Shown here in pieces: positions 3,812-12,234 of a DNA stretch of 12,906 nt (its first letter is position 1; every line of letters begins with the position of its first letter). Source of the stretch: Octopus sinensis (taxonomy: Eukaryota); NCBI RefSeq assembly GCF_006345805.1, contig NW_021826397.1:1-12906 (forward strand), given 5' to 3'. Under the pieces are notes generated by a model that worked only from the letters and a program-made list of their open reading frames with translations, was not told the origin of the DNA and searched no databases. Position numbers and translations under genes: made by a program.

Positions 3812-4222
3812 GTGATTTGAAGGCGAATGGTGTTCTTCCATCAGGATAATGCTCGGCCACATACAGCGAGGATGACATTCCAAAGGCCGGAGCACTTTGA
3901 ATGGGAAACGATACCCGACCCATCAGATTCGCAGGACATTGCCCAATCTGATTATCATTTATTCCACAGTCTTCAAAATCATTTGGACGGAAAAAAAAAA
4001 GAATTCTATAGACGAGGTCAGAACAGAACTGGAAGAGTATTTTTCGTCACGGACAATTTAAGTTTGGAAAAGGGGCCTTGCAAATCTACCAGATAGATGA
4101 AAGACTATCGTAGTTAAAGAAGGAGAATATATTCTAGATTAAAAAAGAAGTTTGTTTATCTTAATTTTGATAAATACAAGAAGTATAAAAAGAAACCGTG
4201 TTACTTATGGGATGACCCAATA
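3812..4222 (+). mobile_element. 5'-truncated mariner transposon with right TIR and TA target site
   Basis: Transposase remnant followed by ...TTACTTATGGGATGACCCAA|TA (4201-4222), a mariner-type TTGGGT terminus. No left TIR in the window. Confidence 0.8.
3827..4142 (+). pseudogene. Mariner (D34D) transposase C-terminal fragment, inactivated
   Basis: HQDNARPH...SDSQDIAQSDYHLF: the second and third catalytic Asp are 34 residues apart and the YSPDLAPSD motif is degenerate. Frameshift in the A-run 3991-4000; the continuation reads NSIDEVRTELEEYFSSRTI*VWKRGLANLPDR*KTIVVKEGEYILD* with internal stops. Confidence 0.92.
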
Positions 4223-4709: not shown

Positions 4710-4945
4710 ATACTAAGCAATAAAGGGTTTAGCAACGAATTGCCTTACCACATACCGAATTTAGAAATAGCAGTCAAAGGGTTATAGCTATTTCTTCTAC
4801 TAAAAAGGGAGATCTCAGTAAAAACAGCAATTTTTACTGAGATCTCCCTTTTTAGTAGAAGAAATAGCTATAACCCTTTGACTGCTATTTCTAAATTCGG
4901 TATGTGGTAAGGCAATTCGTTGCTAAACCCTTTATTGCTTAGTAT
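4710..4945. repeat. Perfect palindrome: 115-bp arms (4710-4824, 4831-4945) with a 6-nt loop CAGCAA
   Basis: Checked by eye in 10-nt blocks with no mismatches. Followed by ~95 bp of unique sequence and then (TA)n; the whole insert sits in the TA tract of a SINE. Confidence 0.95.
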
Positions 4946-10243: not shown

Positions 10244-10398
10244 ATACAGTGTACATTTAAACACATGAGGAATCCACATGAGGAATTTCGTTCCTGTCGA
10301 ATTTTATCCCTAATTTTGTGGTTATAGACCCTAGCTGTTCTTTCTAGCGTGTTGAATCCCACAAGTGGATTCCTAATGTGTTTAAATGTACACTGTAT
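10244..10398. repeat. 34-bp inverted repeat (10244-10277 / 10365-10398, 33/34 identical) within a (TA)n-embedded insert (10143-10398)
   Basis: ATACAGTGTACATTTAAACACATGAGGAATCCAC vs GTGGATTCCTAATGTGTTTAAATGTACACTGTAT; 87-bp spacer; 12-bp direct repeat CACATGAGGAAT at 10262 and 10275. Confidence 0.9.
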
Positions 10399-10408
10399 AT
10401 ATATATAT

Positions 10409-10629
10409 TTTTTTTTTCAAAATGTGACCTCGTGTGTACCGTTGGCGAATTTTTTTCCTCTATCTTCCCTTCTCTGGATCTTTCCTTCTCCTATGTTTCC
10501 GACGAAGAGCTCCGCTCGAAACGTTAAACCCTCCTTCTTCCCTTCTTTCCTGAGCGTCCAATAATATTATATTTGTTCCACGTCCTCGCATTTTTGTGTT
10601 TTTTTTTTTTTGTGTTTTCTTGTTTGGAT

Positions 10630-10633
<4 letters not shown>
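10409..10633 (+). mobile_element. Putative Penelope-like/retrozyme pseudo-LTR fragment inserted in (TA)n, carrying the hammerhead
   Basis: Non-coding ~225-bp pyrimidine-rich block bounded by (TA)n on both sides, containing the hammerhead motif; T-rich 3' end. Confidence 0.5.
10495..10529 (+). ncRNA. Minimal type I hammerhead ribozyme motif (Penelope-like element type), U4C variant
   Basis: GTTT-CCGACGA-A-GAGC-TCC-GCTC-GAAA-CGTT-AAAC: stem I GTTT/AAAC, core C(C)GACGA, stem II GAGC/GCTC, GAAA, and palindromic ACGT in place of helix III. Predicted GUU cleavage site after 10525. Confidence 0.6.
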
Positions 10634-10673
<40 letters not shown>

Positions 10674-10808
10674 GTGTATATATTAACCCTTACCCCCATT
10701 TCAGCTATACCTCTATGTGTTTATCTGTTCATCTGTCTGTTTCTGTCTATCTTCAGCTGATGTAAGAAGCAAACACGGAAAATACGCAACAAAAGGACGA
10801 CGGTAAAA

Positions 10809-11180
10809 ATGGTGAGTTTGACCAAAATGGTAACTTCCCAGCGGCAGAATGTTTTGGCGCTTTCTATTCTCGTTGTATTTTGTTTATCGCCAAAACGAAC
10901 GTTTGGAAATTACATCGTCGATACTGCGGCCCACGAAGAGACTTCAGATTTCTTGGATGCCCTTACAACAAAATATACCACAACTGGAAGTATATTCACC
11001 TTAACGGGGATTAAGAAATTGCTGCAGAACATTCAAAGGTCGAACCAGGATGACGGAAGTTTAGCAGCCACGGTAGGTCACGGTGATACGCGCAAAAATT
11101 CGGAAAATCCTGAAGAGAAACCCGTGATGACTAGTAAATCCGTCTGTGAAAAATCGGAGAAAGTGTGTGCTGCAGAACAA
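10809..11180 (+). CDS. First coding exon (124 codons, partial CDS) of a LIV-1-subfamily ZIP/SLC39 zinc-metal transporter, most like ZIP14/ZIP8
   Basis: Non-repetitive ORF with a hydrophobic signal-peptide-like stretch (NVLALSILVVFCLS). It continues into DFLDALTTKYTTTGSIFTLTGIKKLLQNI, which resembles the LIV-1 ectodomain helix motif (ZIP14-type FL.DL..RYG...SLTL..LK.LL..L, recalled, not aligned). Acceptor ttctgtctatcttcag| ends at 10756, so the exon starts at 10757. Phase-0 donor CAA|GTAGGT at 11180/11181, followed by T-rich intron. Start could be ATG 10809 or 10827. Paralogue not resolvable from this exon. Confidence 0.72.
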
Positions 11181-11470
11181 GTAGGTTTTTATATTTTTGT
11201 ATTCTTAATTTTTTTACATTCTTTATCTATGTTATTTTTTTACATTCACGCTACGAACAAAGAAAAAAAAAAAAAAAAGCAACAAGAACCAAAAGTGCTA
11301 CAAAAAACAAAAAAAAAAACAACCTGCCCTACTCGCCCCACCCCCACCCCACTGCCAAAAAAAATTCTCGCATTACATAAATCACTGTTAAATTGAAATG
11401 GGGTCACGTTTTACCTACATGTTTCTTGTATGTGGGTTAAATGTCAGTGGTCATTATGTAAAATCTGATA

Positions 11471-12234
11471 GGCGGCGATCTGGCAGAAACGTTAGCACGC
11501 CGGGCGAAATGCTTAGCGGTATTTCGCCTGCCGTTACGTTCTGAGTTCAAATTCCGCTGAGGTCGACTTTGTCTTTCATCCTTTCGGGGTCGATAAATTA
11601 AGTACCAGTTACGCACTGAGGTCGATGTAATCGACTTAATCGCTTTGTCTGTCCTTGTTTGTCCTCTCTGTGTTTAGCCCCTTGTGGGTAGTAAAGAAAT
11701 AGGTATTTCGTCTGCCGTTGCGTTCTGAGTTCAAATTCCGCCGAGGTCGACTTTGCCTTTCATCCTTTCGGGGTCGATAAATTAAGTACCAGTTACGCAC
11801 TGGGGTCGATGTAATCGACTTAATCCCTTTGTCTGTCTTTGTTTGTCCTCTCTGTGTTTAGCCCCTTGTGGGTAGTAAAGAAATAGGTATTTCGTCTGCC
11901 GTTGCGTTCTGAGTTCAAATTCCGCCGAGGTCGACTTTGCCTTTCATCCTTTCGGGGTCGATAAATTAAGTACCAGTTACGCACTGGGGTCGATGTAATC
12001 GACTTAATCCCTTTGTCTGTCTTTGTTTGTCCCCTCTGTGTGTAGACCCTTGTAGGCAATAAAGAAATAGGTATTTTGTCTGCCACTTCGTTCTGAGTTC
12101 AAATTCTGCCGAGGTCGACTTTGCCTTTCATCCTTTCGGGGTCGATAAATTAAATACTAGTGAAACACTGGGGTCGATGTAATCGACATATCTCCGCCCT
12201 CAAAATGGCTGCCCTTGTGGCAAAATCTGAAACC
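11471..12234 (+). repeat. Tandem array of family M SINE: one head plus 184-bp units starting at 11518, 11702, 11886 and 12070 (last unit switches tail)
   Basis: The anchor GGTATTT(C/T)G recurs at an exact 184-bp period; units 2 and 3 are identical over roughly the first 140 bp. Confidence 0.95.

What the first reader, a model, noticed from the sequence alone, without database searches (positions are those of the whole stretch)
10495..10529. Minimal hammerhead ribozyme, sense to the ZIP gene, ~230 nt upstream of its splice acceptor
Seen: GUUU-CCGACGA-A-GAGC(UCC)GCUC-GAAA-CGUU^AAAC has stem I, the catalytic core, stem II, and a palindromic ACGU where helix III should be. Established: minimal type I hammerheads with a palindromic helix III occur in Penelope-like element pseudo-LTRs and retrozymes and typically cleave as dimers. 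Inference: the exon at 10757 begins with an acceptor, so this motif is probably in the ZIP pre-mRNA intron, where cleavage (in trans with another family copy) could affect processing. Core position 4 is C rather than U, so this copy may be weak or dead.
Basis: partly seen in the sequence, partly recalled or inferred. Interest (0 to 1): 0.8.

Follow-up and report, generated by a model that had tools for sequence, protein, structure and literature searches.

The report
Variant hammerhead in octopus retroelement tail
The self-cutting-RNA (hammerhead) motif is real, but it is one of thousands of copies in the tail of a jumping gene that landed in an intron of a zinc-transporter gene, where it is likely a harmless passenger; its unusual core letter is shared by most of the family, including intact young elements, rather than being damage to this copy.

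Summary
The motif is at 10495-10529 as described, and 0 of 500 shuffles gave a match to a minimal-hammerhead descriptor. It lies in a ~218-bp solo 3' end (pseudo-LTR) of a Penelope-like retroelement (PLE) inserted in a (TA)n tract, sense, inside the intron before the first coding exon of an octopus ZIP8-like gene. Longer copies link it to an RT + GIY-YIG ORF; two copies have unbroken 1008-codon frames between two such repeats. The C at core position 4 is not decay: 4165 of 6328 exact genomic matches have it, as do 99 of 100 listed copies of the younger subfamily. A young sister family has instead fixed A6U. The motif stays conserved while its flanks diverge. Nothing supports an effect on the host gene: the copy is solo, has no private change, and the exon is spliced in contigs of seven runs. 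Verdict: known kind of element with a family-wide core variant I did not find in print; cleavage untested. My look-ups found no earlier scan note on this sequence.

The parts
10495..10529 (+). Minimal type I hammerhead motif with C at core position 4; predicted cut between 10525 and 10526 (GUU triplet)
   Evidence: Sequence; descriptor scan and shuffles; alignment and pair counts across families
10499..10506 (+). Core strand C3-C4-G5-A6-C7-G8-A9 plus the extra A typical of PLE minimal hammerheads
   Evidence: extra nucleotide between 9 and 10.1 described in PMC4209133
10507..10517 (+). Helix II, 4 bp with 3-nt loop, G10.1-C11.1 closing pair
10518..10525 (+). GAAA strand, palindromic ACGU in place of helix III, U17
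10416..10633 (+). Solo, 5'-truncated 3' end (pseudo-LTR fragment) of a C-terminal-endonuclease Penelope-like retroelement
   Evidence: 41 other places at 92-95% among 40 scored of 1764 candidates; shared ends in 60 oriented loci; continuity with ORF in longer copies
10396..10415 (.). Left target: (TA)n followed by a T run at the 5' junction
   Evidence: same arrangement in most oriented loci
10634..10667 (.). Right target: (TA)n tract
10757..11180 (+). Host exon: first coding exon of a ZIP8-like metal transporter (ATG 10809; acceptor AG 10755-10756; donor GT 11181-11182)
   Evidence: 100% match to the first 124 aa of P0001, Pfam Zip; one contig in each of 7 of 7 laid runs covers 10756-11180 without other letters and continues in sequence not adjacent in the window

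Best explanation
The motif is the hammerhead of a Penelope-like retroelement's terminal repeat, present here as a solo truncated copy in an intron of a ZIP8-like gene, where it is likely an inert passenger. Shown: the repeat is the 3' end of an element with one RT + GIY-YIG frame; it inserts into (TA)n; C4 is inherited from master elements that went on transposing. Inferred: reverse transcription starting at the element's 3' end stopped after about 218 nt and left this copy; in full-length or tandem elements two copies would pair through the ACGU palindrome, probably helped by the element's protein, and cut slowly; C4 would lower that rate without abolishing the element's mobility; a lone intronic copy lacks helix III, folds preferentially into another hairpin and would rarely be cut before the intron is spliced out.
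For: Copy number: 6328 exact matches to the 32-nt motif with positions 4 and 7 free, 4165 with C4/C7, 1714 with U4/C7; a further 1105 for the GUC subfamily, 99 of the 100 listed with C4; backwards controls 0. Link to PLE ORF: RT and endonuclease remnants upstream in the same orientation; L168 and L169 hold unbroken 1008-codon frames between two C4 repeats, L175 (93-94% to the window copy) has repeat - ORF remnant - three tandem repeats; Pfam RVT_1 E 0.002 and GIY-YIG E 0.02. Selection on the motif in the element lineage: between the window-type and GUC subfamilies 2 of 35 motif columns versus 66 of 170 flank columns change (Fisher p 5e-5); helix I pair G-C is C-G in the sister family. Passenger status: one motif in the window, no private change in it, exon spliced in contigs of 7 of 7 runs from 5 studies. 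Literature: monomers inactive, dimers weak (PMC4209133); PLE hammerhead is protein-assisted and its cleavage is not needed for insertion in vitro (PMC11167929); U4C lowers activity in vitro yet suffices for a viroid (PMC3088659).
Against: No cleavage was measured. Both Pfam hits are below the curated cut-offs. The flank count in the conservation test includes indels in pyrimidine tracts, which inflates the contrast; the old-type versus window-type comparison is not significant (1 of 35 versus 13 of 172, p 0.47). Covariation rests on one pair in 9 distinct rows (13 of 500 shuffles as high; pairs with a double change 161 of 500). The runs are only guessed to be RNA and contigs cannot show RNA ends, so partial cleavage of the intron is not excluded. 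The direction U4 to C4 is not shown: the tree rooted on the distant sister family puts the root among C4 elements, the sister shares more sites with C4-GUU than with U4 (30 versus 16), and a single C4 clade is only not rejected (p-AU 0.066).
Confidence: 0.85

Rival explanations
1. In this lineage the motif no longer cleaves at all and is kept only as a folded signal, for example a binding site for the element's protein or part of the internal promoter or 5' UTR.
For: Two young, abundant lineages have each fixed a different change at a normally invariant core position: C4 and A6U (4487 matches, 0 of 100 listed with A6). The younger C4 subfamily also has a U-U mismatch in helix I and a stronger competing hairpin (-8.8 versus -0.5 kcal/mol). 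Catalytic mutants of the Anolis PLE hammerhead still insert in vitro (PMC11167929).
Against: C3, G5, G8, A9, G12, A13, A14, A15.1, U16.1 and G10.1-C11.1 are invariant in all 10 aligned rows, the cut-site base changes only among U, C and A, and a third family has the compensatory U3-A8 pair: the pattern expected if catalysis is still selected. U4C and A6C variants keep low activity (PMC3088659).
Confidence: 0.3
2. The intronic copy is cut in trans by pairing with another family transcript and so lowers or alters ZIP8-like pre-mRNA processing.
For: The copy is sense, intact relative to its subfamily and 231 nt from the acceptor; family sequence is abundant in the laid runs (summed depth 3,900-25,000 at 10491-10571 versus 8-53 on the exon), so partners may exist.
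Against: Only a 4-6 bp palindrome would join the two RNAs (duplex -3.5 kcal/mol); dimers of PLE minimal hammerheads cut poorly even in cis; C4 should slow it further; the exon is spliced in 7 of 7 runs and no listed joint or end involves 10525 (57 joints not shown); thousands of equivalent copies exist, so nothing singles this one out.
Confidence: 0.07
3. The motif is a chance match.
For: Rfam finds no hammerhead and the folding z-score is unremarkable.
Against: 0 of 500 shuffles match; it sits where PLE hammerheads sit, in both terminal repeats of full-length elements; about a quarter of family copies have the canonical U4 core.
Confidence: 0.01

Closest known systems
Minimal hammerheads (min-HHR) in pseudo-LTRs of metazoan Penelope-like elements (Cervera and de la Pena 2014, PMC4209133)
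   Same: Type I, 4-bp helix I, extra base between positions 9 and 10.1, G10.1-C11.1, palindromic C-G at 15.2/16.2 with no helix III, GUU or GUC triplet, position in both terminal repeats, most copies solo from truncated elements.
   Different: Core position 4 is C in the majority and in intact elements; none of the 56 representatives of their Fig. S3 has C4 or a non-A at 6, though their search descriptor fixed the core, so this is not an unbiased sample. No cephalopod among them.
C-terminal endonuclease PLEs with a cysteine linker (Neptune/Nematis clades; Craig et al. 2021, PMC8557442)
   Same: Single frame with RT then GIY-YIG, C-x4-C-x2-C linker before the endonuclease, pseudo-LTRs, tandem and inverted arrangements, (TA)n targets.
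   Different: Long (CA)-rich 3' UTR of 1.2-3.2 kb between ORF and hammerhead. Clade not fixed by a tree with reference elements.
Natural U4C hammerhead variant of a viroid (cited in Perreault et al. 2011, PMC3088659)
   Same: Same core substitution; reported to lower in vitro activity considerably while supporting function in vivo.
   Different: There a rare variant of a full hammerhead with tertiary contacts; here the majority state of a minimal, dimer-dependent motif in over 5000 genomic copies.
Poseidon element of Anolis carolinensis (Frangieh et al. 2024, PMC11167929)
   Same: PLE hammerhead in the terminal repeat; AT-rich targets.
   Different: Its ORF starts inside the hammerhead; here the first ATG of the intact frame lies about 420 nt after the cut site (L168: 1897 versus 2314).
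Animal non-LTR retrozymes (Li, Clavereau and Pollet 2026 preprint, 10.64898/2026.07.22.740005)
   Same: PLE-related repeat with a type I hammerhead; a few copies occur as tandem dimers with 271-bp period.
   Different: The window copy is a solo 5'-truncated end of a coding element, not a unit of a tandem array.

Membership tests
PLE minimal hammerhead (min-HHR) | Type I topology with short helix I and helix II closed by G10.1-C11.1 | tested here: met
PLE minimal hammerhead (min-HHR) | Core CUGANGA | tested here: not met
   Position 4 is C (10500) here and in 4165 of 6328 matches; U in 1714. Filed as a core variant, not a canonical member.
PLE minimal hammerhead (min-HHR) | Extra nucleotide between 9 and 10.1; GAAA; palindrome in place of helix III; NUH triplet | tested here: met
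   A10506; 10518-10521; ACGU 10521-10524; GUU; consensus in PMC4209133 supplement
PLE minimal hammerhead (min-HHR) | Located in the pseudo-LTRs of a PLE | tested here: met
   Both ends of L168, L169, L170, L173, L175
PLE minimal hammerhead (min-HHR) | Self-cleavage as a dimer | not testable with these tools
   Needs in vitro assay; contigs cannot show RNA ends
C-terminal EN+ Penelope-like element | One frame with RT followed by GIY-YIG endonuclease | tested here: met
   1008-codon frames in L168, L169; Pfam RVT_1 and GIY-YIG in that order, both below cut-off; tblastn to other PLE frames of the genome
C-terminal EN+ Penelope-like element | Direct terminal repeats, tandem or inverted insertions | tested here: met
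   Repeat pairs with 2-7 mismatches over about 155 nt; tandem triple in L175; inverted 5' segments
Neptune/Nematis clade | Cysteine linker between RT and endonuclease; microsatellite targeting | tested here: met
   C-x4-C-x2-C in the L168 frame; (TA)n flanks; feature description in PMC8557442
Neptune/Nematis clade | Placement in an RT tree with named reference elements | not tested
   No reference elements were fetched
Non-LTR retrozyme | Tandem units each carrying a hammerhead | tested here: not met
   One motif in the window; definition from the preprint
Host-domesticated intronic hammerhead (HH9/HH10 type; names recalled) | Single-copy, self-sufficient three-helix motif conserved at an orthologous site across species | tested here: not met
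   Thousands of copies, no helix III, no Rfam hit; cross-species conservation itself could not be tested

The most novel reading that the evidence does not exclude
Octopus PLE lineages have stayed mobile after fixing different changes at 'invariant' hammerhead core positions (U4C in this family, A6U in its younger sister), while the rest of the motif stays under selection: the hammerhead has become a protein-rescued or non-catalytic RNA signal, giving a natural series (U4, C4/GUU, C4/GUC, U6, U3-A8) with intact partner proteins for testing what PLE hammerheads are for.
Probability: 0.3. Interest if true: 0.55.

Novelty: new variant of a known kind. Interest (0 to 1): 0.3.

Why it matters
The locus itself matters little: it is one of thousands of solo retroelement ends. 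The family pattern is the useful part. Why PLEs keep hammerheads is open (PMC8557442 calls the function unclear; PMC11167929 shows cleavage is dispensable for insertion in vitro). Young elements with intact frames and fixed core substitutions let one ask directly whether catalysis is required. It also shows that searches demanding CUGANGA miss most members of these two families (over 5000 C4 and about 4400 U6 exact matches in one genome).

Tried and rejected
Rfam did not detect the motif. Pfam found nothing on the exon or three other window frames at E below 0.1 except a weak DUF620. The first GIY-YIG search led to a different, abundant PLE family that does not carry this repeat; its hammerhead is a U3-A8 variant. 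CpG decay as the source of the U4 copies or of C4: rejected as the main cause, since within the window-type group T at 10500 occurs in 4 of 43, similar to other CpG sites (1-4 of 43 on either strand), while the old-type group has U4 in 49 of 54 (30 of these loci were selected for U4). Rooting to fix the direction of the change failed (L152 left out of the C4 group in the AU test; 38 of 64 loci used, 5 dropped for no linked motif, 21 for under 300 nt of endonuclease match). The repeat tree (148 copies) kept the position-4 column, so its C4/U4 split is not independent of the trait; bootstrap had not settled. Age comparisons are biased because loci were picked by similarity or exact motif. Dimer folding gave the same -22.5 kcal/mol structure for all variants, driven by the helix II palindrome rather than the hammerhead, and was not used. 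No RNA holder was listed as RNA on record; all runs are contigs, so cleavage ends could not be sought. Whether the insertion is polymorphic was not tested (read laying cap spent on RNA-guess runs). Lunse et al. 2017, the paper most likely to list such variants, is not held; one search fetched an unrelated paper. Paper searches for the variant: 'hammerhead + U4C' gave one paper; 'hammerhead + Penelope + octopus' none on this; motif spellings gave one paper whose descriptor allows C or U at position 4 (PMC13481778); nothing relevant. Supplement file 1 of PMC4209133 could not be searched. Scan look-ups by words, sequence and place found nothing on this family; one search listed eight notes on other genomes' PLEs that did not bear on it.

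Full report
Observation. A relaxed descriptor finds this site alone in the window and matches 0 of 500 dinucleotide shuffles. Rfam has no model that detects it, and a lone copy is predicted to fold into a different hairpin.

What it lies in. A search of the own genome (2.72 Gb) with 10409-10633 gave 1764 candidates, of which 40 were scored, yielding 41 other places at 92-95% identity. Sixty oriented loci share the same 3' end followed mostly by (TA)n and have variable 5' ends, the pattern of 5'-truncated retroposition. Exact pattern counts: 6328 with positions 4 and 7 free, 4165 C4/C7, 1714 U4/C7, backwards controls 0; strands are balanced. Walking upstream through longer copies crosses a long (CA)-rich region and reaches endonuclease and RT remnants on the same strand. 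An RT search and retrieval of 20 loci gave L168 and L169, each with an unbroken 1008-codon frame between two copies of the repeat, and L175, 93-94% like the window copy, with repeat, ORF remnant and three tandem repeats. The frame has RVT_1 then GIY-YIG (E 0.002 and 0.02, both under cut-off) and a C-x4-C-x2-C linker, which with (TA)n targeting points to the Neptune/Nematis type described in PMC8557442 (passages); I did not place it in a tree with reference elements. The window holds only the last ~218 nt (10416-10633).

The C at position 4. It is inherited, not private. The window copy differs from its subfamily's commonest letters at 7 of 205 columns, none in the motif. Sorting 148 copies by markers outside position 4 gave window-type 39 of 43 C4, old-type 49 of 54 U4, GUC-type 19 of 19 C4, and 32 unassigned, half and half (the sample was partly chosen by motif or similarity). 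The GUC subfamily has 1105 exact matches, 99 of the 100 listed with C4, includes the intact elements, and has short endonuclease-region terminal branches (median 0.009, n 14, versus 0.042 for C4/GUU, n 7, and 0.052 for U4, n 6). In four laid runs, T accounts for 8-26% of depth at 10500. The likely order is U4, then C4/GUU, then C4/GUC, but this is not shown: rooting on the distant sister family falls among C4 elements, and one C4 clade is merely not rejected (p-AU 0.066).

Selection on the motif. Between window-type and GUC-type, 2 of 35 motif columns but 66 of 170 flank columns change (p 5e-5; flank indels inflate this). The sister family, 58-77% identical in protein, has the reversed outer helix I pair and another helix II loop (weak covariation, one pair), and has fixed A6U: 4487 matches, none of the 100 listed with A6, with the shortest branches of all (median 0.0018, n 11). 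A third PLE family has the compensatory U3-A8 core, a type known from PMC4209133. After insertion, copies lose motif letters at rates near those of the flanks (old-type 0.052 versus 0.062; window-type 0.022 versus 0.041), so the constraint acts mainly on master elements.

The host gene. The exon's 124 codons match P0001, labelled by NCBI as ZIP8-like of Octopus vulgaris, at 100%; P0001 has a Pfam Zip domain. The exon is single-copy; the next coding exons lie on another contig. One contig in each of 7 of 7 laid runs (5 studies, RNA by guess) covers 10756-11180 without differences and continues into other sequence on both sides. The upstream piece is absent from the window, which is the whole contig, so the motif lies sense in an intron of at least 10.7 kb before the first coding exon, if the assembly is right. 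No listed joint or end involves the motif, but contigs cannot show ends and 57 joints were not shown.

Mechanism. PMC4209133 (parts 1-2 of the text and supplement file 2 parts 1-2) reports that single minimal hammerheads do not cut and dimers cut poorly. PMC11167929 (parts 1-2) reports that a PLE hammerhead cuts only with the element's protein and that cutting is not needed for insertion in vitro. PMC3088659 (passages and section 8) reports that U4C lowers activity considerably yet supports a viroid, and that A6C is slow. PMC6765202 (passages and section 11 part 2) summarises the dimer model. From these I infer that the motif serves the element, as a slow, dimer- and probably protein-dependent cutter of tandem transcripts, and that the lone intronic copy is rarely if ever cut (0.85). 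The invariance of the other catalytic bases argues that cutting is still selected; the fixed C4 and U6 argue that it may have lapsed (0.3). A host effect is possible but has no support (0.07).

Novelty. PLE minimal hammerheads, solo copies and intronic insertions are known. None of 56 published representatives has C4 or U6, but those came from a descriptor with a fixed core; a 2026 virome study allows C or U at position 4 (PMC13481778, passages), so C4 hammerheads as such are not new. I found no report of PLE families fixed for these changes, but could not read Lunse et al. 2017, which surveyed such variants (known to me from recall and the reference). The preprint on retrozymes was read in part 1 only. 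Verdict: new variant of a known kind, interest 0.3.

Noticed in passing
L188-L195, L198, L200, L201; genome-wide: Very young sister PLE family whose hammerhead core has U at position 6; 4487 exact matches, 99 of 100 listed CUGUUGA.
   Followed up: partly
L081, L083-L085, L089-L093: Third young PLE family (781-codon RT/GIY-YIG frames, some with an overlapping upstream 479-codon frame) whose terminal motif is a U3-A8 hammerhead with a 6-nt palindromic helix III.
   Followed up: partly
window 10247-10395: Small element with about 34-nt terminal inverted repeats (35 of 37 letters alike including the flanking TA), flanked by TA, directly left of the PLE fragment; looks like a Tc1/mariner-type MITE (label recalled).
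   Followed up: partly
window 4710-4945: Perfect 115-nt inverted repeat with a 6-nt spacer.
   Followed up: no
window 11518-12185: 184-bp tandem repeat, about 3.6 units at 92-98%, from a very abundant dispersed repeat family with very high depth in the laid runs.
   Followed up: no
window 3821-4093: Short frame with a motif recalled as mariner-type transposase; no Pfam hit at E 0.1.
   Followed up: partly
L095 3524-4006; L096 3196-3678: Tandem dimers of the repeat (271-bp period) with C4 and a G in place of the extra A; identical on two contigs.
   Followed up: partly
L168 5160-8130 and relatives: The 3' UTR of the element is a 1.2-3.2 kb (CA)-rich tract that lengthens in the younger subfamily.
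   Followed up: no
L169 1639-1940: A U6-family repeat sits about 270 nt upstream of a C4-family 5' repeat on the same strand, so hetero-dimers between families are possible in cis.
   Followed up: no
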